DNA from: Eledone cirrhosa
Lineage: Eukaryota
Direction: 5' to 3'
NCBI GenBank assembly: GCA_964016885.1
Contig: OZ024743.1
Span: forward strand, 170,314,001-170,378,000
Length of the DNA: 64,000 bases
Both the position numbers and the translations under genes were made by a program. This document shows, piece by piece, positions 3,117 through 57,851 of this stretch. Positions within the stretch are counted from its first letter, which is position 1. The number at the start of each line of letters is the position of its first letter. Below the pieces are notes generated by a model. That model made no database searches and was not told the origin of the DNA. It saw nothing but the letters and a program-made list of their open reading frames with translations.

Positions 3117-3222
3117 TGTATATATATAAAACTCACCTCCTACATTAACTTGTCCTTAACGGTTGAGCGCTTACTCTCATATTGGATACCTTTTGATGGT
3201 CCTTCACCTCTTCTTCTACAAC

Positions 3223-5624
3223 ATGGATTATTACAACATAACCAATTCAACTAAAGACATTCCTATACCTGGTAAATCTGAATTCACCAAACTTCTTATT
3301 GAAAAAACTGACTCCTTCGTAAGAAGACTTAGATGGACAGCCTATTTCTATGACCAGCGCCTAAAGGGGAACTTTCATACCAAAGAACACAACTTCCTCG
3401 ATCATCTTTTTAATTCTAGACGTAATCCTCCTTCCAACAAAAATCTAGTACAATTCGAGGAAGAATTAACTAAAATAATAAAAAATCTTAAATTCAAGAG
3501 ATACCCTTACAAAGGACAAGAGCACCTTGTAAATCTCAAGAACACAATCTCTAACCTAAATTCCTCAAAAAATGTTTTAGTCCACTCTGACAAAACCAAT
3601 AACCTATATGGTATTTCCAAGGATAATTATAACAACCTTATCCTAAAGGAACTTAGGAAAAAGTATCGTAAAACCAACCATGAAAATTTAGAATGCATAA
3701 ACCTTGAAGCCTATGAGATTATGTCAAAACTTGGCATTGAAAAAAAGACCGAACCATTCCTCCCAAGAACTCCGAGGATAAATCTCAAGGATCACAAAAA
3801 CAATTTTCGCACTGAACTACCTGCTAGATTAATCGCCCCCTCTAAATCTGATCTGGGGGTTGTTAGTAAAGCCATCTTGGATAGAATTATCCCACAGGTT
3901 AGTTCTAATTGCTCTTCTTTGAACCTAAATTTATGGTTTGGTACTTCTGAAGTGATTGGCTGGTTCAACAAATTGGATAATAAAAACAAACTAAAATGTA
4001 TTCAATTTGATATTGCCAGCTACTATTCCTCCATTTCGCCTTCACTTCTCAATAATGCTCTATCTTTCGCACTTAAATATTCTGACATCACCACAGATGA
4101 ACTTCACACCATCCTCACCGCACGTAAAACCATCCTAGAGTTCAACAACGAATATTGGACCAGAGCCGATACCTCTAACAACTTCGACATCACAATGGGA
4201 GCATCCGATTCATCCCAATTGACTGATTTAATTGGTATCTTCATTTTGAACTCTTTGAGTCGGAAAATTCCTCAACTTCGCGGTGGAATTTATCGTGACG
4301 ATGGACTCTTTACTATCCTAAATTGCAATATAGTTAACCTTAATATTATTAAGAACAATATACGTAATCTCTTTAACCAACATAACCTAAAAATTGAATT
4401 TGATAATAGTATCAAACTAGCTAATTTCTTGGATGTATCTCTTAATCTTGACACTGGCCTATATTACCCTTACCATAAAAACAATGAGAACCTTAATTAT
4501 GTTAACTTTAAATCTAACCATCCTACCAATATCAAGAATGCTATAGTTAATAATATTGGAAATAGAATATCTAACATATCTTCTAATAAAAACATCTTTG
4601 ATGCTAACGCCAATTACTATAATAACGCACTTTCTAAAGCCGGCTATCCAGATAAAATCAAATATAGTAAAGAAACAAATTCTAGAAAAACTTACAGTAG
4701 AATAATTAATCATGACCATTCCAATAATTTCAATAAAAGACCTAGATACAAAAACATAATCTGGTATAATGCTCCTTTCTCCATCTCTATTAATAACAAT
4801 ATTCCTAAATTATTTTTTAGGCCTTAAATAAATGCTTCCCTCCCTCACATATCTATAGTAAAATATTTAACAAACACACCATCAAATTTTCGTATTCTAC
4901 ATCCTCCAATATTTCCAACATCATCTCTAAACACAACAATAAAATACTAAATACTAAATCTCTTCCTTCCAATATTGAATTTCATAATAACAGTAATAGT
5001 ACTCCCGACGTCATTGTAAACCCTAGGCTAACTTCTGTAAACCCAAATACAACGTCAAACACAACTTCGCTAAATGTTCATAATCCAACTCTAAATCAAG
5101 AAACTATTATTCCTATTATTCCTATCGCAAACAACTTCTCCAATCCAATTCCTTCTATAGATAACACTAGATCACTCATTAATAATCTCTCTAATTGCAA
5201 CTGCCGCATTAAAAATAAATGTCCTCTCAACAACCATTGTCTCGATAAAAACTTAATTTATGAATGTAAAATTATAACTAGCACCAATTCTTTCACCTAT
5301 TTTGGCTCCACTTCCACCTCTTTTAAAGCTCGTCTCTATAATCATCATTCATCTTTCAAATACAAACTTAAAAGAACTAACACTGCTCTCTCAGAACTCA
5401 TATGGTCCTTAAAAGACAAAAACATTAAATATACCATCTTTTGGAAGAAGATTTCTTCTGCATCCTCATACTTGAACAGCTCTCTATCTAAAATCTGTAA
5501 TCTCTGCCTAAATGAAAAATTTACCATTATCTCTAACCTAGATTCTATAATAAATAGACGCACAGATTTGTTTTCTATCTGCCTGCATAAATTCCATAGA
5601 ACTTTTCACAAAGTATACAGTTAA
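3223..5624 (+). pseudogene. PLE reverse transcriptase / GIY-YIG endonuclease ORF with one frameshift at about 4820
   Basis: HSDKTNNLY, KDHK, RLIAPSKS, QFDIASYYSSI, ITMGA, IYRDDG and FLDVSL. From 4821 a shifted frame is open to TAA 5622-5624 and encodes CNCRIKNKCPL, LIYECK..TYFGST..FKARLYNH, CNLCLNE and CLHK. Confidence 0.88.
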
Positions 5625-6651
5625 TATTCAATTCTTTATCAATTTAGAATCTTTTCTCAAAGGCACATATACATACACCTCTTTAAAATATACCCATCTT
5701 CCTACCATACTTTAAAGGGCTTTATACACTCTATAATACTTGTTTACTCATTACCCTCATTCTATCTTCACCCTGTAAAATCATTCATAACATATACATA
5801 TGTTTTTTTTGACGTTAGAATATTCATCCGCCATCATTATTTTTTTCTCTCTATCATAAATCTTTTTAATCTCAATTTCATCCTTAATTTATTATTTTTT
5901 TCTCCCCATCAACGAACTCATTCTTAATACATATTAACTCTATTCGCATATATTATCAATTCCTCCAATATACAAACTTTAACTTCACATTATTTTTCTC
6001 AAATCCTTCTACACACAAACCTTAATAATTTTTCTCTTCGTTAATTTTGAAATTGCCACAACATACCCTTTTTTGACGTTAGAATATTCATCCACAATTA
6101 TTATTTCTTCTCTCTATCTTCATACATAAATTCCCTTCGTTAATTTTCAAATTCCTTTAATTTATACATTATCTTCCAACGGTTTCTCAACCTCTCTGTG
6201 TAAGGCAATGTATCTTTCTCTCAATTATAAAATCTATCTCTTTCTCTCTATCGCCCATCTCTCCCTCTCCACCTTCACTCTCATCTCCTCCCACTTTTTT
6301 TTCATCCTTTCCACCCCCCTCCCTAAATAAAATACTTTTTCCTCGCACATATCCTCCTTTCGTTGATTTTCAAAAATTTTTTTGGGGTTTATACATTATC
6401 TTCCAACGGTTTTCAACCTCTCTGTGTGGGACAGTATATCTCCTCTCAGTTATAAAAGCTATCTCTTTCTCTCTATCACCCATCTCTCCCTCTCATCTCC
6501 TCCCCTTTTTCATCCTTTCCACCCCCCCCCCCCCTCTCTAAATAAAATATTTTTCCCAATATCACACATCAATCTAAAACCACTTTTCATATGTTGATTT
6601 AAAACTGCACTATCCACAAGTGTTTTTTAGCCTTCATATCATGTTCTCCTG

Positions 6652-6718
6652 TTTTATCTGATGGAAACACAAATATTATTGCATGATGATGTTTATTTTT
6701 GAAATGCGCATAATAAAA
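6652..6718 (+). ncRNA. Type I hammerhead-like motif at PLE 3' end
   Basis: TTTTAT-CTGATGG-(36 nt, AAACA/TGTTT)-GAAA-TGCGCA-TA-ATAAAA; palindromic stem III ATGCGCAT; the core has A9>G. Confidence 0.6.
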
Positions 6719-6757
6719 TACATGGAACTCCTTTAACCATCTTTTGATCTTATATTA

Positions 6758-7629: not shown

Positions 7630-7665
<36 letters not shown>
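6758..7665. repeat. (TA)n/(TATG)n tracts interrupted by a ~255 bp unique island (7250-7505)
   Basis: Direct reading. Confidence 0.9.
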
Positions 7666-7667
<2 letters not shown>

Positions 7668-7750
7668 AAAGTTTTATTTAAAAATTGTTGGGTTGCAACG
7701 AGTAAATATTTTATAACTGATATAAAGCACTCAACAAGTTTTGGAGTAGA

Positions 7751-8289
<539 letters not shown>

Positions 8290-13053: not shown

Positions 13054-13181
13054 CATATATGTGTGTGTGTGTGTGTGCATGTGTGTTTATTTCTCCTTTC
13101 ATTCTTCCTTTTCCAGCCTCACTTTCATATAGATTATATTTTTGTTTTTAAAATCCAATGTCAATAAATACACGAGGATTT

Positions 13182-13238
13182 TTTTATTCTGATGATTGAA
13201 AGCAAAATTTGCTTTCAAGAAACCACTGGTAAATGAAA
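13182..13238 (+). ncRNA. Type I hammerhead ribozyme with canonical core
   Basis: TTTTATT-CTGATGA-TTGAAAGCAAA/TTTGCTTTCAA-GAAAC-CACTG-GTA-AATGAAA; GUA site and near-palindromic stem III. Confidence 0.88.
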
Positions 13239-13299
13239 TAATTATCTTATGGTGTTTATTACATAACTATATATATATATATGCATATAATCTGGTACT

Positions 13300-14860
13300 G
13301 GGGATTTAAAAATCACCCTACAGACGTCGCTAACGCAAGTCAATTTCCTGTACATTACCCTCAACCTCGAAAATGATCTGTACTACCCATACAGGAAACC
13401 AAACGACAACCTGCACTACATCCACCGCCACTCTAACCATCCTGGAAACATCACCAACAACCTGGTTAAAAACATCTCCCTCCACATATCTTGTTTGTCC
13501 GCTAATGAGCAGATATTCGATGAACATGCGCCTTATTACAACCAGGCTCGCAAGCGAAGCGGCTTTTGGGAGGAAATCTCCTTTTACCCAGCTTCCCAGC
13601 AGGTGACGCCACCGCTCACACCACATAACGTGGTTCGACCCTCCCCACAATGCCGCGGTTGCAACACCAATCGGGAAAATCTTCTTCAGGCTCCTCGAAA
13701 AACACTTCCCACCACAACACTGCGACCACAATATAATCAACAAAAACACTATCAAACTCTCCTGCAGCACCACACTCAACTTCGCACAAAACATCGCCTC
13801 TTCAAACAACAAGAAACTCAACTACTATGGAAGAAACAACTTAGACAATAGTGGAGAGCTGACCAGGAAGTGTAACTGCCCTGATAGATCTACGTGCACC
13901 CTCAACAACAGATGCCGAGAATGTAATGTGATCTACCAATACAATGTGACTTTAAGACCCGGCTCTACCAACACCGACATACGTTCAGAAACCCAGCCCG
14001 GCGACATGCCACTACACTTTCGGGCCACATCTGGGACCTCCAAGATAATAACATCACATACCATCTAAGTTGGAGCTTAATTTCCAGGGCTAACTCCTAC
14101 ACGGGAGGACGCCATCCGTCTAACTTATGCTCGGAGGAAACAATACAAATGCTGTTTCCGAAGGACCAACTCCCAAACTAAAAAGACGAATTTGTAACTG
14201 CATGTAAACACCGATTGCGTAGGACTTACCCTGCCCTCAAACCCCCTCATGACACAGGTGGGTAGACAATGGCTATAACATCCTTCTTTTCCCCACTTGC
14301 TGAACAAGATAGGGGAAACCCTAGCATACATAGGTAGATGTACTTCTTTTCCTTTTTCCCTTTATCTCTTCTTCTCACTTCTTTCCACTCCCTCTCCTCT
14401 TCATTTTCCTTTTTCCTCTTTCGTTTACCCTGAGGCAGCCCATCTGGCTTTTGTAGCCTTAGTACCCCCACCCCAGAAAATTCTATATAGCATTGGTCAA
14501 AAACTCAATACCAGCTAAAAATATAGCAGCTGCTTTAATTTTTTAATTTCAATTTATTAACTTTTTTAATTTTATAACTTCCCACTCCAGAATTCTTTTT
14601 TTGCTTGCTTTCTAGCTAGCCTAATTTCTTCCACACTCCTTAGAATTTGCTGTATAGAATTCACTTTCAACACTTGACTGGCTCCACCCATTCCCTCATT
14701 GTTCTACAGGCAAGTTCAGCCACCCACCACCATGAAAAATTTAATTGTGTTTACAAGAAATTTTGACCAATCTTTTTGGCAACTACTTTTGGCCAGTTAA
14801 AAGTACCTCTTCTATTATACAGTGGTGGCCATGACTGGACTCCGAAACATTGTCTACATT
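13300..14860 (+). mobile_element. Degenerate 5'-truncated Hydra-like PLE (same family as 43931-46190)
   Basis: Encodes VNFLYITLNLENDLYYPYRKPNDNLHYIHRHSNHP and CNCPDRSTC with frameshifts; the DNA aligns by eye to 43931-44960. Confidence 0.82.
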
Positions 14861-17866: not shown

Positions 17867-18348
17867 TATATGTACGTATGGGTTTACCAAACATTTATTA
17901 TAATGTTCGGTTTGTTTGTAAACAAACAGCCCGAACTAAGCCGTACAGTGTTCAGCAACCATCGTTGCCCTTTTGTTCAACACTGACAAAGGAACGATGA
18001 ACTAGTTCCTAGCTTATTAGCTGTCATCAGCACCGTATACCTTCCTGTCAATCGATTGAACGTTTGAAAGTATATACTTTCCTTATGCATATTAACGGCT
18101 GAGCAGTCTAATTTGCATATCGATTGAGTTAGTCGGCCGGGCGTACCGAAAACGATAAATGGAAAAAATGAAATTTCATTTCTCACTCTTAGTACGGCTG
18201 ATATATAAATATAAGTATTTATACATACATACATATATGTATACAGATGTACAGTAGTATGCATATAGATTCATACATGCACACATATATATATATGTAC
18301 GTATGCGTTTACCGAACATTTATTATAATGTTCGGTTTGTTTGTAAAC
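17867..18348 (-). mobile_element. Retrozyme-like element, subfamily 2 (425-bp unit plus 57-bp terminal redundancy)
   Basis: Direct repeats 17867-17923 and 18292-18348; octamer (ATTTGCAT at 18111-18118); minus-strand hammerhead 17994-18036 ACGGTG-CTGATGA-CAGCTAATAAGCTA-GGAAC-TA-GTT-CATCGT. Confidence 0.78.
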
Positions 18349-18539
18349 TAATAAATATAACCAAATCATATCTGTCCTTCCCATCAAATGAACCTATACT
18401 AACGTCAGGGGAGCTGCTCAAGTCCTTTTACTCATTCAGTGCTTGCAGCGGCAGGAGATTTTAGACAAACTCTCCCAGCTATTCCAAAAGTCAAAAATCT
18501 TGAATACCAGTTCACAAGTGTCTCAGTAAAAGGGCTGTA

Positions 18540-27122: not shown

Positions 27123-27729
27123 TACACCTACATATGTATACGTGTGTGTATTCATATACACACTAGTATTTCAGTATGCATATGTAGATGTACATTTTTG
27201 ACTTAATTGTTTAAGCGTCAGTCATACAAAAGTGAGTTACAAACGAAACGAAATTTAATTTCGTTTCGTATTGTTTTATCGTCTCCGCTGAACCGGTGCG
27301 TACTCACACTCTATGCAAATAGTCTGCCCACTACTAATTTTCATAGAAAAAGCATATAACGATATGTGCTTTTACAATTCTCCAGAAAGGCCGGTAGATA
27401 GGTAAATATTGCTGATGAGTTGTAACAACAACGAAACTAGTTCAATATTCCTTGTCTGGCTTTCTGGAGAATAGGGGAAGATGTTCCCCCAAAAACCAGT
27501 ATGACTCTAAAAACCGGTTGTCTGTGTGTTTACATAGAGAATAGCTGGGCCGCTCACTGTAAAGCGACCAGTGAAAGACTTGGTACACCTACATATGTAT
27601 ACGTGTGTGTATTCATATACACACTAGTATTTCAGTATGCATATGTAGATGTACATTTTTGACTTAATTGTTTAAGCGTCAGTCATACAAAAGTGAGTTA
27701 CAAACGAACGAAATTTAATTTCGTTTCGT
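27123..27729 (+). mobile_element. Retrozyme-like element, subfamily 1 (461-bp unit plus ~147-bp direct repeats)
   Basis: Direct repeats 27123-27269 and 27584-27729, octamer at 27313-27320, minimal hammerhead, no ORF, (TA)n on both sides. Confidence 0.85.
27405..27449 (+). ncRNA. Minimal type I hammerhead ribozyme with intact core
   Basis: AATATTG-CTGATGA-GTTGT-AACA-ACAAC-GAAAC-TA-GTT-CAATATT; stem I extends to ATTCTCCAGAAAG (27377-27389) / CTTTCTGGAGAAT (27460-27472). Confidence 0.92.
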
Positions 27730-27739
27730 TATTTGTTTT

Positions 27740-29004: not shown

Positions 29005-30933
29005 ATAAATCTACCACACTTCAACCTGAAAGATCATAAATCTAACTTTAACTCTAATCATTCTATAAGGCTTATATGCCCTTCCAAATCTGATATTGGA
29101 ATAATTAGTAAAGAAAATTTAGATAGAGTCATCCCACAACTAAGAAAACATGTTAATTTACTACTCTGGGAAAACACATCCCAGGTAATTAACTGGTTTA
29201 ATAATATTAGAAATAAATCCTCTGCTTCATTTCTACAATTTGATATAGATAATTATTATTATTCTATATCACCTATACTCCTGAACAAAGCCTTGATATT
29301 TGCTAAAAATAGATCTAACTTAACTTTGGATGACATTAATATTATTACACATGCTAGACTAACACTATTGGAATTTCAGAATGAATACTGGACCAGAAAC
29401 ACATATAGTAATCTATTCGATATTACTATGGGCTCAAGCGATTCTGCCCAAATTACTGATCTTGTGGGCCTCTTTCTTCTTTTTAACATAAATGCTTCTT
29501 TTCCCCACCTTAAAGGTGGTTTATATCGTGACGACTGTCTTCTTCTTTCCAATAACCTTAACCTCTCAGAGATAGAAAAAAATAAAAAGCTTATTAGAAC
29601 TTTCCTCAAAGACTATTATAGTCTAGATATTACATTTGAAAACACAAGTAAAGTAGTTAATTTCCTAGATATAACATTAGACTTATCTACGGGTATCTAC
29701 CAACCCTACCATAAACCCAACCAAAATTTACACTACATACACTCACAATCTAATCACCCTAAATCTATCCTTAAAAACCTTGCATATAATATATCACTTA
29801 GAATTTCTAACCTTTCGTCTAACCAAGATGTATTTGATAAAAATGCGACCTTTTATAACGAAGCTCTAGCTAGAAGTGGCCACAAAAATAGATTAGTATA
29901 TATACCTTCTACCAATAACACTACAAACATACAACCTAATATTACCAACAAACACCAAATGAAACATACACACTTAAATGCCACTCACACTATACCCCAA
30001 AACACCAACATAAAACCAAATTTCTCTAACTCTTCTAATATACAGTATAGTAACTCTCAAAAAACTACTCATCCTACAACTCTAATAAATGTTAATAATA
30101 AAACTCCTAATAAACAAGCTAAATCAATAAATCTAACTAAAAATGTGTGTGGTGAGGTCATTAACAATAATTCTCTTAATAAACATCAGGATGCATCCTA
30201 TAAAAACAATAAACAACATCGAAACCGTAATAGACGAGTTACTTGGTACAATGCTCCATTTAATTTACAAATTAAGGATAATATACCTAAAAAATTCTTT
30301 AATATCCTAGAGAAAAACTTCCCGCCAAACCACAAATACCATCAAATCTTAAATAGATCAACGGTTAAATTCTCCTACTCAACAACCAAAAACATAAAAC
30401 AAAATATAAGTGCCTATAATGCATATAAATGTAAAAAAACCATGCGTATACCACCAGTACATCAAACTAACCATAATATCTCCTCAGATACAGGATTCAC
30501 GAAAAGTTGTAACTGTAGAAACAAGGCAAACTGTCCATTAAAAGGAAATTGCCTTGTTAATAACATAGTATATAAATGTAAAGTGAACACTAAGGACTCA
30601 ATTTATTCATATATAGGAGCTACCTCTAACAAATTTAAGGTAAGATTTAATACCCACAAACATAGTTTTAAAAATGCCGCACTAGCTAATACAACATCTC
30701 TAGCTGAAATAATAAATAGTTATAGAAAGAGGAATATAGAATATGACCTGACCTGGAGTGTGCTCAAAAGGGCCACCCCTTATCAAAATAGTAGAAAGGA
30801 ATGTAGATTATGTTCCCAAGAACTTTTTGAAATAATGAAATCTAAGGATATCCTATTAAATAAGCGACAGGAATTAATAATACCGTGTAATCATAAACTG
30901 AGAAAAACCTTTAAATATTATAAACCTAATTAA
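29005..30933 (+). CDS. 5'-truncated but uninterrupted Hydra-like PLE RT/GIY-YIG ORF
   Basis: The frame is open upstream of the called 29293 start ([28 protein letters not shown]). It continues through [44 protein letters not shown] and CNHK. The 3' region runs to about 32490. Confidence 0.9.
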
Positions 30934-31140
30934 TATACACTTTAGAAATTAATTTATAAATTATTTTTAATTTAGTTAACCTATAATTAATATTCTACTA
31001 CTGATGAACTACATAACTCTGCTTTAAAAATTATAAACCTAATTAATATACACTTTAGAAATTAATATATAAACTATTTTTAATTTAGTCAACCTATAAT
31101 TAATATTCTACTACTGATGAACTACATAATTTTGCTTTCC
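30918..31140 (+). repeat. 113-bp tandem duplication spanning the PLE stop codon
   Basis: TTATAAACCTAATTAATATACAC starts at 30918 and 31031. Confidence 0.9.
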
Positions 31141-43876: not shown

Positions 43877-43930
43877 TATATATATATTATATATATTATA
43901 TATATATATATATATATAAATATAGGAAAC

Positions 43931-46190
43931 ATACAGGAAACCTAATGACAATCTGCACTACATCCACCGCCGATCAAACCATCCTAGGAACATCACAAAC
44001 AACCTGGTCAAAAACATCTCCCTCCGCATATCCCGTTTGTCAGCTAATGAGCGGATATTCGATGAACATGCGCCTTATTACAACCAGGCCCTCAAGCGGA
44101 GTGGTTTCCGGGAGGAAATATCCTACTGTCCAGCTCCCATTAGCGGAACCAGCAGGAGACACCGCCGCTCACGCAATGTAACATGGTTCAATCCTCCCCA
44201 CAACGCAGAGGTGACAACTCCCATCGGGAAACTATTCTTTAGGCTCATTGAAAAACACTTCCCATTACAACACCGCTACCACAACATAATTAACAAAAAT
44301 ACCATCAAACTCTCTTACAGCACTACACCAAACTTCGCACAAAACATCGTCTCCTCTAACAACAAAAAACTCAACCCCGATGGCAGAAATAACCTAAATA
44401 GCAGTGGAGAACCGACCAGGAGGTGTAACTGCCCGGATAGATCTATTTGCCCACTCGACAATAGATGCAGAGACCGTAATGTGATTTACCAGTGCAACGT
44501 GAGGACGGATACCTCCAACAAAGCCTATATAGGACTTACCGCATGTGACTTCAAGACCCGGCTATACCAACATAGACATACCTTCCGAAACCCGGCCCGG
44601 CGTCACGCCACTACACTTTCGGGCCACATATGGGACCTCAAGGACAACAACATCACCTATGATCTCACTTGGAGATTACTGTCCAGAGCCAATTCTTACA
44701 CGGGAGGACGCCGTCCGTGCAATTTATGCTCGGAGGAAACTTTACAAATGCTGTTTTCGACGGACCAACTCCTAAACAAGAAAGATGAACTGGTTACTGC
44801 ATGTAAACATAGATTGCGTAGGACTTACCTCGCCCTCAAACCCCATAATGACCCGGGGGGGTAGACTAGGGCTATAACACCCCACTTGCCGATTTTGCAA
44901 TGGGTAACCCCTGCTTGCCAAGGGAGACGTAAGATCTTCTTTGTATTCTTTTATCGCTTCCTTTATTTCCTTCCTTCCCCCCTCTCTCCTTAGTCCTTCT
45001 ACCCCAGCTCTTCTCCTTTGTTGGCGTCTTTTCTCGCCCACCCGAGGCTGCCCTTTGGCCCCTTGTAGCCTTAGTTCCCCCACCCCCTCCCCTAGTCTAG
45101 GATAGATTTGGCGGACTCCGCCCTTTATAGCAGTTGGTTTAGACCCCGGATACTTGTCCCCTTTTTCCGACCGCTCCCACTATTCTCTGTGCCCTCTATA
45201 TTTCTTAGTGGCACTTATGCCTTATTTTTTCGTTTCAGTATTTCTTTCTTCGCTTTTCTTTTGGGCGGGGTGGATTCTGAATTTATTCTTCCGTATTCTA
45301 CCTTTACTTCGTACGAACTTTCATGTAGCTTGTTTTAGATCTTTTAGAGTTAGCATTAGTATATATTTTTCTCGGGACTCAGAATTATTATCTCGTATTA
45401 GTTCACTCTGCTGCACTGGGTGGTTGCTGGAATTGTGCCCGGGATGGAAACCTTTATTGTTTATTTCGTGGTAGTCTCTTTAGTATTTTGGCCTCTTTTG
45501 TTGACCCGTCACCGTATCATTTACGTACTTATACCTCTTAAAAGAGTCCTCGCCTATACCGTCCCACCTAGTTCTTTTACTTATTTCGTTATTTCTTTAT
45601 TTCTTTCTTTACTTCTTTCTTTCTTTATTTATTTATTTATTCTAGCCTAACAATAGCCTGAGACCTAGGTCGTAGAATTTAATTTACTTTACTTTTTTCT
45701 TTACACTCATCTGTTTTTCTTTACACTTATTTGCTTTTCTTCACTCTCAGTATTTTTTCTTTCCTATATTTCTACCCCCCATTGTTCTACCTACCGTTCC
45801 GACTTCCTCCCCCTCCCCCTCCCCTGTATCTTCTTTGACCTCATGCCCAGCTGTAGCTGGCACTACAAACGCTTGATTGGGGCTACTCCACCCCCTCCCC
45901 TCTTTCTCCTACTGGCAGGTTTAGCCACCATCTCCCCTACTAATTTGCAACCACAGAATTACTACTGATTTTTGACAATCAATTTGACCATATATGGAAT
46001 TACCCCTTGAGAAGATCGGCTATTTAAATACCAGGATAAATTTTCATTTAGTCCAGAATTAGCCGTCGAAACGGCTTGAGCTCAGCTGTCGGGGTCTTAC
46101 TGGTTCCTATTACCCACTCTACTACCTCAAGTATTGAGTACTTTGGTGCGTTATGGTCCACCTGGTTCCTTACCACATTTCCTTTGTTAT
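43931..46190 (+). mobile_element. 5'-truncated Hydra-like PLE: thumb, GIY-YIG (ORF to 44864), long 3' region
   Basis: YRKPNDNLHYIHRRSNHP, CNCPDRSICPL, VIYQC..AYIGLT..FKTRLYQH, CNLCSEE and CKHR; hammerhead near the 3' end. Confidence 0.88.
46002..46095 (+). ncRNA. Variant type I hammerhead at PLE 3' end
   Basis: ACCCC-TTGAGAAGA-TCGGCTA...TAGCCGTC-GAAAC-GGCT-TGAGCTC-AGCT-GTC-GGGGT; all three stems pair but the 5' core is non-canonical. Confidence 0.65.
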
Positions 46191-46705: not shown

Positions 46706-47703
46706 AGAGAGCTTATACCACTATTAGCCGCTAGAGGGTTCTCCCTAAAAATGAAAGGCAGGTTATATGATGCCTGCATACGAACAGCAATGCTGCATGA
46801 CAGTGAGACCTGGGCATTGTGTGCAGAGGACATACGCAGACTAGAGAGGAATGAAGCTTGCATGCTCCGCTGGATGTGCAATAGTAATACACGTGAACGG
46901 CTAAGCATAAACGAACTAAGGAAAAAATTAGAAATAAGAGGGATCAGATGGCGTTTACTCGAGAGAAGGCTACGTTGGTACGGTCACGTGATGCGCATGA
47001 AAGACGACAGCTGTATAACAAAGTGCAGGGCAATAAAGATAGACGGTAGCCACGGAGTAGGCAGACCCAGAAAAACCTGGGACGACATGATAAATTCCGA
47101 CCTCACACGCTTACACCTCTCCAAGACAATGTCACTGGACCGAGACCTTTGGCGGTACTCAGTAATAGAGAAAACCCGCCTTACCTACATACAAAGTAAA
47201 AACCTACTACAGTCAGTAGGCATCTCTATCAAAACACACCCCCGTCCCACCACCTCCACCCCATCCACACCGCCCCGCCCCTTTCAATGTAAAGTTATCT
47301 TGGTACCACAACATCCAGGCCGAAACAAATGAGATCGTGTAGGTGTCACGACAAAAAAACACACAGTCCACGCTGTAAATGTGGCCGTGTAGGCAACACG
47401 GTAAAAACCTCCCAGCCCCACACTGTAAATGTGGATGGTGTTAGGAAGGGCATCCAGCTGTAGAAAACCCGCCAGACAGTCCACGCTGTAATGTGGCCGT
47501 GTAGGCAACATGGTAAAAACCTCCCAGCCCCACACTGTAAATGTGGTTGGTGTTAGGAAGGGCATCCAGCTGTAGAAAACCCGCCAGACAGTCCTATGCG
47601 AGCAAGACAACCACTCTTGCCTCAAGTGGGAAAACCCCCGTCCAAACCCATGCAAGCGTGGAACACGGACGCTAAACCTGATGATGATGATGATGATGAT
47701 GAT
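46706..47703 (+). mobile_element. 3' fragment of RTE family B with ~113-bp tandem duplication in the 3' UTR
   Basis: ORF 46751-47332; CAGTCCACGCTGTAA repeats at 47365 and 47478; (GAT)n tail. Confidence 0.9.
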
Positions 47704-54218: not shown

Positions 54219-56140
54219 ATCATCATCATCATCGTTTAACGTCCATCTTCCACGCTTGCATGGGTTTGGACGAGAGTTTTGCCACTTGAGGCAAGATTGG
54301 TTTTCCTGCTCATATAGGACTGTCTGGCGGGTTTTCTACGGCTGGATGCCCTTCCTAACACCAACCACGTTTACAGTGTGGACTGCGAGGTTTTTACCAT
54401 GTTACCTACATGGTCACATTACAGCGTGGACTGTGTGTTTTTTTGTCGTGACACCTACACGTCTGGCGGGTTTTCTACAGCTGGGTGCCCTTCCCAACAC
54501 CAACCATGTTTACAGTGTGGACTGGGAGGTTTTTACCGTGTTACCTACACGGCCACATAACAGCGTGGACTGTATGTTTTTTTGTCGTGACACCTACACA
54601 ACCTCATTTGTTTCGGACTGGATGTTATGGTACCAACATAACTTCACATTTAAGGGGGTGGTGTGGATGTGGTGGGGGTAGTGGGACGGGGGTATATTTT
54701 GTTTGAGGTGCCTACTGACTGTAGGTTTCGCTTCGTACTTAGGCAAGGCGGGTCTTCTGTATGACTGTGTAGTGCCAAAGATCTCGGTCCAGTGACATTG
54801 TCTTGGAGAGGTGTAAGTGTGTGAGGTCGGAATTTATCAAGTCGTCCCAGGTTTTTCTGGGTCTGCCTACTCCGTGGCTACTGTCTATTTTTATCGCCCT
54901 GCACTTTTTTATACAGCTGTTGTCTTTCATGCGCATCACGTGACCATACCAACGTAGTCTTCTCTCGAGTAAACAACATCTGATCCCTCTTATTCCTAAT
55001 TTCTCCCTTAGTTTGTTTATGCTTTGCTGTTCACGTATATTACTATTACACATTTCATCTAGATCAATTTGTTCTCTGATTAGTCGCGCTATTACTTTTT
55101 CTGTGACCTTCATGACCTGGTCGATTAATTTAATGCCTCTATAGTTACCCCTATCTAGGGCATCTCCTTTACCCTTGTAGCAGTTAATGATGATGCTGCT
55201 ACGCCAGTCCTTCGGAACGGCCCCATTCAGTATGACTTGGTGTACTATCCGGGTGACCATAGTGTGTCCCACCGTTCCAGATGCTTTCAGCATTTCAGCA
55301 ACTATTTCCGAAGGCCCGGCCGCCTTGCCTGTCTTCATGTCTTTGATCGCCTTACTTATTATACTACCTTCAGCTTGCACTGCTGGTCCCTCTATTGGGT
55401 CAATGTGGGGGAGACTGTCTTTCTCCCAATTATTCTCCTCATTTAGTAGCCTTTCGTAGTGACACTTCCAAGCTACCTTATTATCAGCGTCAGTGATGGC
55501 AAATACACCACCATCATTAAGGACACACTTCTCCCGGACAATATCACAGTTTTCCTTGACACATTGCCTAGCAATCCTGAACACCTCACGTTTTTGGTCC
55601 TCGTATTGTAGAACATGCTTGAACTTTCTTTCCTCTGCTTACCTTCTTGCGAAGTACACTTGTCTCCTAGCTTCCCTCCTGACCACTTGATAGTCTTCTC
55701 TACTTCCCTTATCCCGCCATACTTTCCAAGCCAGCTTTTTGGCCTTAATTGACTCCTCCACCTTACTGTTCCACCACCACGTTACTCTCCTCCTGCCTAT
55801 AGGCCTGCTCCAACCACAGACTTCATCTGCCGCCTTCAGCAGGTTAGCTTTCAGGAATTCCCACTGTTCCTCTATATTGTACGACTCTAATTGCTCTTCC
55901 TTACTGTCGAAAGCATCAAGTAATATGCTTTTATATTTATTACTAGCTGTTGGGTCCTTTAGCTTCCATATTTTTCTGCTGGGGATAGTCCTCCTCTGTT
56001 GTCGAGTACGTCTTGTCCTGACTATGAGGTCGCTGACTATGAGTCTATGTTGGGAGGTGCATTCTTCATGGGGGAGGGATGGTAAGGATATAATCTATCT
56101 GACTGGCGTGTTCCCCTGATCTATAGGTGATCAAGTGATG
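54219..56140 (-). mobile_element. RTE family B-related copy with the RT core deleted
   Basis: ORF 54739-55584 joins IDLDEM directly to CNSNIRE; endonuclease remnant HLITYRSG near 56115-56140. Confidence 0.88.
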
Positions 56141-56298: not shown

Positions 56299-56360
56299 TA
56301 TATATATATATATATTATATATATATTATATATATATATATTATATATTATATACTATAT

Positions 56361-56764
56361 AGGCAGTATTGGTAGAAGATCGGACGCCCTGCTTTGATGC
56401 ATAGAGTTACAGCCCTTGCCATTCTGAGTTCAAATCCTGCCCAGGTTAACTCTGCCTTTCATCCTTACGGGGTCGATAAAATAAAGTACCAGTAATACAC
56501 TGGGTAATTGCTGGCCTTGTGCCAAAAGTAGAAACAATTATATATATATTATATATGGATTGGCAGTATCGATAGACAGTCGGACACCATGCTTTGAAGC
56601 ATAGAGTTACGTTCCTTTATGATCTGAGATCAAATCCCGCCGAGGTTAACTTTGCCTTTCATCCTTACGAGGTCGATAAAATAAAGTACCAGTAATGTAC
56701 TGGGTATTTGCTGGCCTTGTGCCTAAAATAGAAACAATTATATATATATATAATATATATATAT

Positions 56765-56795
<31 letters not shown>

Positions 56796-57216
56796 ATATA
56801 TATTATATATATTATATATATATTATATATATATATTATATATATATTATATATATTTATTATATATATATTATATAATAGAGGGTGGTGAATTGGCAGT
56901 ATCGTAAGAGGGTTGGACGCCATGCTTTCTAGCATAGTTACGTCCCTTTACAGTCTCAGTTCAAATTCCGCCGAGGTTAACTTTGCTTTTCATCCTTACA
57001 GGGTCAATAAAATAAAGTACCAGTAATGTACTGGGTAATTGCTGGCCTTGTGCCTAAAGTAGAAACAATTATATATATATTATATATATTATATATATTC
57101 TGAGTTCAAATCCCGCCGAGGTTAACTTTGCCTTTCATCCTTACGGGGTCGATAAAATAAAGTACCAGTAATACACTGGATAATTGCTGCCCTTGTGCCT
57201 AATGTAGAAACAATTA
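56361..57216 (+). mobile_element. Four head-to-tail copies of the tRNA-derived SINE separated by (TA)n
   Basis: Copies at about 56361-56540, 56557-56740, 56881-57070 and 57098-57216, each with TTCATCCTTAC..GTC.ATAAAATAAAGTACCAG and a GAAACAATTA end. Confidence 0.88.
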
Positions 57217-57356
57217 TATATATATTATATATATATATTATATATTTATTATATATATATTATATATATTATATATATATATTATATATATATATTATAT
57301 ATATATTATATATATTATATATATTATATATATATTTATATATATATTATATATAT

Positions 57357-57851
57357 GGAAAACATGAAACGAAATTTCATTTCTCACTCTTAGTATGGCT
57401 GTTACTTAAATATAAGTATGTATACGTACATACATATATGTATACAGACGTACAGTAGTATGTATATATATATAAATACATACATGCACACATATATATA
57501 TGTACGTATGGATTCACCGAACATTTATTATAATGCTCGGTGTGTTTGTAAACAAAATCCCGAATTAAGCCGTAGTGTCTAGCAACCATCGTTGCTCATT
57601 TGTTCAACCCTGACAAATGAACGCTGTACTAGTTTCAAGTTTATTAACTATCATCAACAATATATACCTTCCTGCCAGATGGTTGAACGTCTGAAAGTAT
57701 AAACTTTCCTTATGCATATTAACGGCTGAGCAGCCTAATTTGCATATCGAGTGAGTTAATCGGCCGGGGTACCGAAAACGATAAACGGAAAAAATGAAAC
57801 GAAATTTCATTTCTCACAGAAATGAAATTTCGTTTCATTTTTTCCGTTTAT
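57357..57851 (-). mobile_element. Retrozyme-like element, subfamily 2 (430-bp unit) with terminal 34-bp foldback
   Basis: Homologous to 17867-18348; ATTTGCAT at 57738-57745; minus-strand hammerhead 57621-57663 TTGATGA-TAGTTAATAAACTT-GAAAC-TA-GTA; repeat ATGAAACGAAATTTCATTTCTCAC at 57364 and 57794. Confidence 0.78.

What the first reader, a model, noticed from the sequence alone, without database searches (positions are those of the whole stretch)
17867..18348. Second, diverged subfamily keeps the same architecture (also 57357-57851)
On the minus strand both copies read TTTATCG...ACTC..ATGCAAAT-TAG(A/G)CTGCTCA..., collinear with TTTATCG...ACTC..ATGCAAAT-AGTCTGCCCA in the 27-kb element. Next come a GAAAG-TATATA-CTTTC palindrome, a long stem bearing a hammerhead with the same AAC-TA-GT stem III, and a GCAAC-GATG-GTTGC hairpin. 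Stem sequences differ completely, while the octamer, GATG loop, order and spacing (81 vs 92 nt from octamer to core) persist, which looks like covariation. The two copies begin at different points of the same 425-430 bp unit (circular permutation) and carry different single core mutations (GGAAC; TTGATGA), implying an intact consensus.
Basis: partly seen in the sequence, partly recalled or inferred. Interest (0 to 1): 0.82.

Follow-up and report, generated by a model that had tools for sequence, protein, structure and literature searches.

The report
Hammerhead retrozyme families sharing promoter-like block
These are two decayed copies of an abundant 425-430-base protein-less repeat whose predicted self-cutting RNA fold and octamer-TATA block are shared with a sister family only 60% alike, so the repeats likely carry their own promoter and are likely pasted into TA repeats by Penelope-type enzymes, a known kind of element (retrozyme).

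Summary
Observation largely confirmed. 17867-18351 and 57357-57851 (minus strand) are 1.1-unit copies of a 425-430 bp hammerhead repeat, 86% alike, collinear with the 461 bp family at 27123-27739 (58-61%; z about 11). Six of 18 hammerhead pairs covary across the three copies, and public reads add more. The family core is intact: 99% of raw reads have GAAAC where this copy has GGAAC. Corrections: the GATG loop is not conserved (the 27-kb family's majority is GGTG), the stems are not wholly different, and the ends are not freely permuted. Two of three copies, and other copies in public contigs, stop at one point (..TTTAT) abutting (TA)n; one has an inverted 5' piece. These are Penelope-type insertion marks, and Hydra-clade-like Penelope ORFs lie in the window. 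Best reading: non-LTR retrozymes, likely transcribed from an internal octamer-TATA promoter (precedent: newt satellite 2), cut, circularised and copied by a Penelope RT from a preferred priming site. Transcription, cleavage, circles and promoter function are untested: no RNA run was on record and no genome was held. The scan had already reported this system many times on other pieces of this genome.

The parts
17867..18351 (-). Copy A1: about 1.14 units of the 425 bp hammerhead repeat, 60 bp terminal direct repeat, 3' end in the internal TA-rich tract abutting (TA)n
18153..18159 (-). TTTATCG motif of A1, shared with A2 and B; in A2 and B it lies at the recurrent 3' junction (likely priming site)
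18111..18118 (-). Octamer ATGCAAAT of A1; invariant in all three copies; also the 5' arm of a predicted hairpin whose 3' arm differs between families
18071..18076 (-). TATA-like box, 34 nt after the octamer in A1 and A2, 32 in the window's B copy (33 with the extra T that many B copies carry)
17988..18045 (-). Type I hammerhead of A1: core CUGAUGA 18030-18024, helix II with C.A base and AAUA loop, GGAA (private A-to-G at 18008), one-pair helix III with palindromic CUAG loop, predicted cut after 18000
17954..17969 (-). Hairpin with GAUG loop after the hammerhead rod
57357..57817 (-). Copy A2: about 1.07 units of the 430 bp repeat, 31 bp terminal repeat, 3' end at TTTTCC abutting a TA-rich tract
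57818..57851 (+). Exact 34 bp inverted copy of the element's 3' hairpin at the 5' end of A2, running 5 nt past the direct end (to TTTAT); Penelope-type inverted 5' piece
   Evidence: Craig et al. passages
57738..57745 (-). Octamer of A2
57615..57672 (-). Type I hammerhead of A2: UUGAUGA (C3U), U.U at the base of helix II, GAAAC, CUAG loop, GUA triplet
27123..27739 (+). Sister family B: about 1.34 units of 461 bp, 157 bp terminal repeat, inserted in (TA)n on both sides; octamer 27313-27320; intact hammerhead 27397-27454 (Rfam HH9, 38.6 bits, below the gathering score of 52)

Best explanation
These are single-ribozyme, likely dead copies of an abundant family of animal non-LTR retrozymes, homologous to the 27-kb family, which are likely transcribed from their own octamer-TATA promoter, predicted to self-cleave and close into circles, and likely copied by a Penelope-type reverse transcriptase from a preferred priming site into (TA)n. 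Steps: (1) SHOWN: two families about 60% alike keep the same order of motifs and the same hammerhead fold through compensatory changes; the family majority has an intact core; thousands of distinct contigs carry family A in two organisms' runs. (2) INFERRED: the block TTTATCG-ACTC-ATGCAAAT-(34 nt)-TATA is a small-RNA-type promoter that starts transcription just ahead of the ribozyme. (3) INFERRED: in loci with two or more ribozymes, read-through RNA is cut to a monomer, probably helped by dimer formation through the palindromic ACUAGU helix III, and ligated by a host ligase; the monomer holds the promoter, so daughters inherit it. (4) INFERRED: a Hydra-clade Penelope enzyme nicks (TA)n, primes on the UUUAU just after the 3' hairpin, copies through the ribozyme junction and beyond one unit, and stops at variable points, sometimes adding an inverted piece. 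(5) The three window copies hold one ribozyme each, so none could release a monomer by itself.
For: Collinearity and z-scores. Covariation in three copies. In reads: pair 18033/17997 is G.U in A1 and U.G in 34.5% and 33.1% of X21 reads, and is A-U or G-C in X4; pair 27420/27431 flips U-A to A-U in 70% and 72% of X21 reads (marginal frequencies, not phased). Core A at 18008 in 99% of X21 reads, X1 depth and X4 depth. 6,879 contigs of X1, 4,006 of X4 and 38,062 of 12.5 million X21 reads laid on A; 688, 75 and 3,194 on B; 0 of X10 on B. Circular-monomer folds z -6.5 to -7.7 against 30 shuffles each. The promoter-like block is the segment best kept in sequence, and X4 contigs match B there (27302-27357) but not in the rod. 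Recurrent 3' end: A2 and B; 56 X1 and 24 X4 contigs turn loose at 18165-18166 into AT-rich letters; 10 X1 contigs do so at 27269; 6 of the 15 joints shown have one end in 18160-18175 (P about 0.01). Inverted 5' piece and (TA)n targets match Penelope-like insertions. Four window ORFs carry the CxCX5C linker of (TA)n-targeting Hydra PLEs.
Against: Nothing here shows transcription, cleavage or circles. The octamer also lies in a predicted hairpin arm in both families, so RNA pairing could share in its conservation. No match to the host's own snRNA promoters could be tested (no genome held). The distance from TATA to core differs (46 vs 59 nt), and B has T4-T5 runs inside the unit that would hinder Pol III. 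No homology was found between the units and the flanks of the window's PLE ORFs, unlike many Xenopus retrozymes. The family majority has a mismatch at the base of helix II (U.U in 95-96% of X21 reads; C.A in X4) and a one-pair helix III, so monomer cleavage may be weak; 8 of 9 predicted Xenopus elements did not cleave in vitro. A1 lacks 5 nt near 18172 relative to A2, which alone can pile up clip points there. Only 24 of 712 and 18 of 138 loose-end rows and 15 of 41 joints on A were shown. A1 ends at another point.
Confidence: 0.65

Rival explanations
1. Same element, but the copied template is a linear read-through RNA ending at the oligo-U after the 3' hairpin; partial tandems arise by re-priming at that end, not by rolling round a circle.
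For: One recurrent 3' end at a hairpin plus T-run in both families. Joints in which that end meets variable internal points, some on opposite strands. All three overhangs (60, 31, 157 bp) are shorter than the 270-297 nt from cleavage site to 3' end, so a linear RNA could have templated them.
Against: The inverted piece of A2 runs 5 nt past the direct end, and junctions fall inside TTTAT, so the template continues beyond the T-run. Seamless unit junctions are common (809 X21 reads clipped at 27274 carry it). Circles are shown for coral, mussel and axolotl retrozymes.
Confidence: 0.25
2. The octamer is kept as an RNA stem or a protein-binding RNA element, not as a DNA promoter; the repeats are transcribed only by read-through from neighbours.
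For: ATGCAAATTAG pairs with a downstream arm in both families, and the whole unit folds into matching hairpins.
Against: The octamer arm is invariant while its partner arm differs between families. The spacing to the TATA-like box holds within 2 nt across 60% identity. A newt hammerhead satellite has a working snRNA-type promoter (second-hand).
Confidence: 0.25
3. The element is mobilised by the abundant RTE LINEs, not by Penelope-like elements.
For: RTE-type ORFs are frequent in the window; no sequence link to PLE flanks was found.
Against: Partial tandem with fixed 3' end, inverted 5' piece and (TA)n targets are described for PLEs. The RTE-type copies here are bordered by (ATC)n/(GAT)n runs, which the retrozyme ends lack.
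Confidence: 0.08
4. The copies are only 5'-truncated ends (pseudo-LTRs) of an autonomous Penelope element.
For: PLE pseudo-LTRs carry hammerheads and form partial tandems.
Against: The sequence upstream of the promoter-like block is the end of the same 425-461 bp unit, with no ORF between. The window's PLE-side hammerheads have a different build (long helix II, 40-55 nt from the end).
Confidence: 0.05

Closest known systems
Metazoan non-LTR retrozymes (coral, mussel, axolotl; Cervera and de la Pena 2020, PMC7229834; Li, Clavereau and Pollet 2026, bioRxiv 10.64898/2026.07.22.740005)
   Same: Short non-coding unit with a type I hammerhead, GC 35-38%, high copy number, dispersed monomers, Penelope-like elements in the same genome.
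   Different: Units of 425-461 nt (170-400 in the 2020 paper; 51-972 in the 2026 one). An octamer-TATA block inside the unit (the 2020 paper has no occurrence of 'octamer'). A recurrent 3' junction into (TA)n and an inverted 5' piece. No pLTR homology found here. RNA not shown.
Axolotl HHR_Amex1 and HHR_Amex2; newt satellite 2
   Same: Amex1: one-pair helix III capped by a palindromic tetraloop, needing dimers. Amex2: U.U mismatch at the base of helix II. Family A has both features. Newt satellite 2 has an internal snRNA promoter (second-hand passage).
   Different: Invertebrate-type host (likely an octopus, inferred). The newt promoter is Pol II type; here a TATA-like box follows the octamer by about 34 nt, more like a compact Pol III type 3 promoter (recalled knowledge). 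The original newt paper was not held.
Hydra-clade Penelope-like elements (Craig et al. 2021, bioRxiv 10.1101/2021.04.23.441226)
   Same: Partial tandems, inverted 5' copy, insertion into (TA)n, hammerheads.
   Different: No ORF; different hammerhead build; the 3' end lies 270-297 nt after the cut site rather than 40-55 nt as in the window's PLE-type ends.
Schistosome SM-alpha hammerhead repeats
   Same: Hammerhead repeat with an internal promoter (Pol III; second-hand passage).
   Different: That promoter is tRNA-like (recalled); no A/B-box search was run here.

Membership tests
Type I hammerhead ribozyme | Core CUGANGA, GAAA, UH with helices I-III | tested here: met
   Met for B and for the family A majority. 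Each A copy has one core change. For C3, A1 has C and none of the 40 of 63 variant rows shown is at 18030.
Type I hammerhead ribozyme | Compensatory changes in the helices | tested here: met
   6 of 18 pairs in three copies; matching marginal frequencies in reads. No R-scape test on phased copies.
Type I hammerhead ribozyme | Rfam gathering score | tested here: not met
   0 hits in the window at gathering. B scores 38.6 bits, E 3e-8, against HH9, cut-off 52. The A copies were not scanned by E-value.
Type I hammerhead ribozyme | Self-cleavage | not testable with these tools
   Needs in vitro transcription.
Metazoan non-LTR retrozyme | Short, non-coding, low-GC repeated unit with a type I hammerhead | tested here: met
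   425-461 bp, GC 35-38%; no stop-free frame of 150 aa or more over A1, A2 or the non-TA part of B; thousands of contigs.
Metazoan non-LTR retrozyme | Two or more complete hammerheads in tandem at the locus (the 2026 paper's test for an active copy) | tested here: not met
   One hammerhead per locus in all three; they match that paper's monomer class. Multimers elsewhere could not be tested (no genome).
Metazoan non-LTR retrozyme | Expressed as monomeric linear and circular RNA | not testable with these tools
   No RNA holder listed.
Non-autonomous Penelope-like insertion | Partial tandem with variable 5' end, inverted 5' copy, (TA)n target | tested here: met
   Partial tandem 3 of 3, inverted piece 1 of 3, 3' end abutting TA-rich tracts 3 of 3.
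Non-autonomous Penelope-like insertion | Sequence homology to a PLE pseudo-LTR | tested here: inconclusive
   None against seven PLE-flank stretches of this window; one z 4.1 hit vanished on retest (114 of 200 shuffles as high). Only the window was available.
Autonomous Penelope-like element | RT plus GIY-YIG ORF | tested here: not met
   No ORF in the unit.
snRNA-type promoter (newt satellite 2 layout) | Octamer, and a TATA-like box at fixed spacing | tested here: met
snRNA-type promoter (newt satellite 2 layout) | Proximal sequence element matching the host's snRNA genes | not testable with these tools
   No genome held; no snRNA gene in the window at gathering score; no mollusc paper found. 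Earlier scan notes claim such a match, unchecked here.
snRNA-type promoter (newt satellite 2 layout) | Promoter activity | not testable with these tools
   Needs a reporter or mapped 5' ends.

The most novel reading that the evidence does not exclude
These families are self-sufficient RNA circles of the germ line: each circle carries a captured host U6/snRNA-type promoter, a dimer-dependent ribozyme and a dedicated priming signal (3' hairpin plus UUUAUCG) shared with the ends of Hydra-clade Penelope elements, and its RNA is edited by ADAR before being written back to DNA. That would give the first defined cis signals for both transcription and retrotransposition of an animal retrozyme.
Probability: 0.3. 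Interest if true: 0.72.

Novelty: new variant of a known kind. Interest (0 to 1): 0.45.

Why it matters
Two steps of the animal retrozyme life cycle are guesses in the papers read: what transcribes them and which enzyme copies them. Two families 60% alike separate what is kept as sequence (TTTATCG, octamer, TATA spacing) from what is kept as structure (hammerhead, downstream hairpin), and so name the exact signals to mutate. The Penelope-type inverted end and the recurrent junction into (TA)n point to a specific helper clade. The kind of element is known, a promoter-bearing precedent exists in newts, and the scan has already noted this system many times in this genome, so this locus adds support and corrections rather than a new system.

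Tried and rejected
Whole-genome table of copy ends: no genome held. Rfam at gathering score: 0 hits. Sequencing-run search: no RNA holder listed; this is no evidence on expression. Run X6 (kind not on record, 59 contigs laid) could not be classed and is not used for expression. Pile-ups of read ends at 18110/18113, 27205/27208 and 27336 fall on AATT and are taken as RAD enzyme sites, not RNA ends. Joints 'goes back 461' on B only show the unit junction in other copies, not circles. Viral-contig pattern scan: 7 hits, of which 4 are unrelated phage-type hammerheads with a long helix III and 3 show no hammerhead fold. Two metagenome scans: 0 hits. Pfam named none of the four PLE-like ORFs; the homologue search gave mostly unnamed hits, so the clade rests on motifs. 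Homology of PLE flanks to the units: rejected after retest. The first pair count used a structure with the helix I bulge one column off; one search is the corrected one, with the same 6 covarying pairs. CAGCC/CAGTC..AGTGAG as a PSE for a start at TTTATCG: set aside because its distance differs (46 vs 56 nt or more, read from the sequence). Literature searches returned 0 papers; one search (hammerhead ribozyme plus cephalopod) listed 2 titles, neither on these repeats; one search listed 1 unrelated title. Scan look-ups by sequence and nearby were empty.

Full report
Setting. The window is animal DNA rich in (TA)n, RTE-type LINE ORFs and Penelope-like ORFs. The host is likely an octopus: this is inference, from one 41% hit named Octopus bimaculoides and from earlier scan notes. 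No whole genome was held, so other copies were seen only through public runs.

Anatomy. A1 (17867-18351, minus) has period 425 and a terminal repeat 57/60 identical. A2 (57357-57817, minus) has period 430 and a repeat 30/31 identical, preceded by an exact 34 bp inverted copy of its 3' hairpin (57818-57851). B (27123-27739, plus) has period 461 and a 157 bp repeat. A1 and A2 share 362 of 421 aligned bases; A1 and B 242 of 414; A2 and B 252 of 415. The order in all three is TTTATCG, ACTC, octamer, AG.CTGC.CA, TATA-like box, a rod topped by the hammerhead, a small hairpin, GTTTAC, a hairpin, a TA-rich hairpin, CAG.C.TAC..AGTGAG and a 3' hairpin with a T-run. Against 300 dinucleotide shuffles each, the promoter-like block scores z 8.8 and 9.5, the rod z 5.9 and 7.5, the TA-rich part z 4.0 and 5.4, the 3' hairpin part z 3.4 and 4.4, and the GATG-to-GTTTAC part only z 2.1 and 0.6. 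The families are therefore homologous along most of the unit.

Ribozyme. All three are type I hammerheads with a one-pair helix III closed by the palindromic loop CUAG. B matches Rfam HH9 at E 3e-8 but below the gathering score. On the gap-free 58-column alignment, 6 of 18 pairs change on both sides, 85% of cells pair against 39-53% for slid partners, and 2 of 500 shuffles reach the covariation score. With three sequences and a structure drawn from them this is descriptive, not a significance test. Reads add support. Pair 18033/17997 is G.U in A1, U.G in about a third of X21 reads on each side (34.5% and 33.1%), A-U or G-C in X4, and U-A in B. In B, 27420 and 27431 flip together in 70% and 72% of X21 reads. 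A1's GGAAC is private: 18,276 of 18,429 X21 reads have A, as do over 99% of X1 and X4 depth. For A2's C3U, A1 has C and no shown row varies there (40 of 63 rows shown). The family majority is not a textbook ribozyme, however: the base of helix II is U.U in 95-96% of X21 reads and mostly C.A in X4, and the triplet is GUA in 93% of X21 reads but GUU in X4 and B. The axolotl ribozymes have these same two weak features, one each, and cleave well only as dimers (PMC7229834).

The loop GATG is a private state of the window's B copy: 316 of 316 X21 reads have GGTG, in a stem that also differs by paired changes. Loose-end letters on A show further stems around GATG, GTTG and GTG loops (agreement 0.59-0.94). 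What is kept is a hairpin with a G-N-U-G-type loop. The GAAAG-TATATA-CTTTC palindrome is exact only in A1; X4 alters four of its positions in 48-65% of depth while ATATA stays. The stems share 35 of 58 columns.

Ends. A2 and B stop at the homologous point, after the 3' hairpin and T-run and at the start of TTTAT(CG), and run into TA tracts. A1 stops in the unit's own TA-rich tract, by alternative priming or later slippage (not resolved). In public contigs, 56 of 6,879 X1 contigs and 24 of 4,006 X4 contigs turn loose at 18165-18166, the largest X1 group among the rows shown; 10 of 688 X1 contigs do so at 27269 in B with TA-rich letters; 6 of 15 joints shown have an end in 18160-18175 (P about 0.01). 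Caveats: only 24 of 712 and 18 of 138 loose-end rows and 15 of 41 joints were shown, 18203-18351 was masked, and A1's 5 nt deletion near 18172 can itself cause clipping. So 5' ends vary and one 3' end is preferred. Partial tandems, an inverted 5'-truncated copy and (TA)n targets are the described marks of Penelope-like insertions (Craig et al.). Four window ORFs carry CxCX5C, and one DKT (3160-4827), the motifs of the Hydra clade, all of whose families insert into (TA)n. I found no homology between the units and the window's PLE flanks.

Promoter-like block. It is the segment best kept in sequence. The octamer is invariant in the three copies, and no shown row on A varies within it; the TATA-like box follows at 34, 34 and 32 nt (many B copies carry an extra T after the octamer). 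X4 contigs match B at 27302-27357 but nowhere in the rod, as expected of a further family or gene sharing only this block. Against a promoter: the octamer is also one arm of a predicted hairpin in both families, TATA-to-core distance is 46 against 59 nt, and B holds internal T4-T5 runs. Newt satellite 2 has an internal snRNA promoter and schistosome repeats a Pol III promoter (second-hand, PMC2220036 passages; the newt paper was not held). Earlier scan notes say the block matches the host's U6 or snRNA promoters; I could not check this.

Mechanism. Shown: homology, covariation, intact family core, abundance, end structures. Inferred: internal promoter; cleavage, likely as dimers; ligation to a circle that carries the promoter; priming of a Hydra-type RT at UUUAU on nicked (TA)n; copying past one unit with variable stops. 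The inverted piece of A2 runs 5 nt beyond the direct end, so the template continued past the junction, which fits a circle or a read-through RNA. A linear template is the main rival, since all three overhangs are shorter than the 270-297 nt from cut site to 3' end. Each window copy has one ribozyme and so would not release a monomer.

A side signal. A1 and A2 differ by 24 purine transitions against 11 pyrimidine transitions on the ribozyme strand (P 0.04). On B, about 113 X21 reads from one or two start points carry A-to-G at six places within 27494-27512, none seen in X1, and X21 shows A>G at 20 places against T>C at 2. This looks like an ADAR-edited RNA written into one genomic copy, which would be evidence of an RNA stage. 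It rests on one RAD locus, probably picked out because A-to-G changes made an enzyme site there (enzyme identity recalled). Similar scars were noted for other retroelements of this genome.

Literature seen. PMC7229834: passages and parts 3-4 of 6, supplement not read. Craig et al.: passages and section 11. PMC2220036, PMC10886601, PMC11722881: passages. Searches showed no paper on cephalopod retrozymes or on an octamer in invertebrate ones; subscription papers and unseen supplements may hold such data.

Verdict. A real feature; a variant of metazoan non-LTR retrozymes with a likely internal promoter and Penelope-type ends. The scan reported the same system before on other pieces of this genome. 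Interest 0.45.

Noticed in passing
window 6640-6755, 7990-8105, 13172-13270 (+): Three other type I hammerheads with long helix II, each 40-55 nt before a (TA)n tract; cores intact at 8006 and 13189, one change at 6658. The first closes the PLE at 3160-5624. Likely PLE 3' ends.
   Followed up: partly
window 7665-8105: Inverted-repeat insertion whose hammerhead arm ends in ATTTGTTTAATATCG before (TA)n, resembling the retrozyme junction motif (T-run then TATCG); a possible shared priming signal, not tested for chance.
   Followed up: partly
window 3160-5624, 13291-14068, 29005-30933, 43926-44864 (+): Penelope-like ORFs with CxCX5C linker and GIY-YIG-like motif, fitting the Hydra clade; Pfam names none.
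   Followed up: partly
window 27468-27537, reads of run X21: About 113 reads from one or two starts carry six or more A-to-G changes on the ribozyme strand, absent from X1: a possible ADAR-edited retrozyme copy in genomic DNA.
   Followed up: partly
window 27302-27357, contigs of run X4: Another organism's contigs match the octamer-TATA block of B but continue differently after TATA: a third family or a host small-RNA gene.
   Followed up: no
window 27439 and 27442, reads of run X21: About 35% of reads have a B variant with CUGG loop and GUC triplet, breaking the helix III palindrome.
   Followed up: no
window 30909-31138: 113 bp tandem at the 3' end of a PLE ORF with CTGATGA in each unit but no convincing hammerhead.
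   Followed up: partly
window 47363-47594, 54322-54599, 56337-56763, 56954-57246: Two-copy tandems of 112-200 bp SINE-like units beside RTE fragments.
   Followed up: no
L001, L005, L006, L007: Phage contigs with type I hammerheads with a 9 bp helix III, unrelated to the finding.
   Followed up: partly
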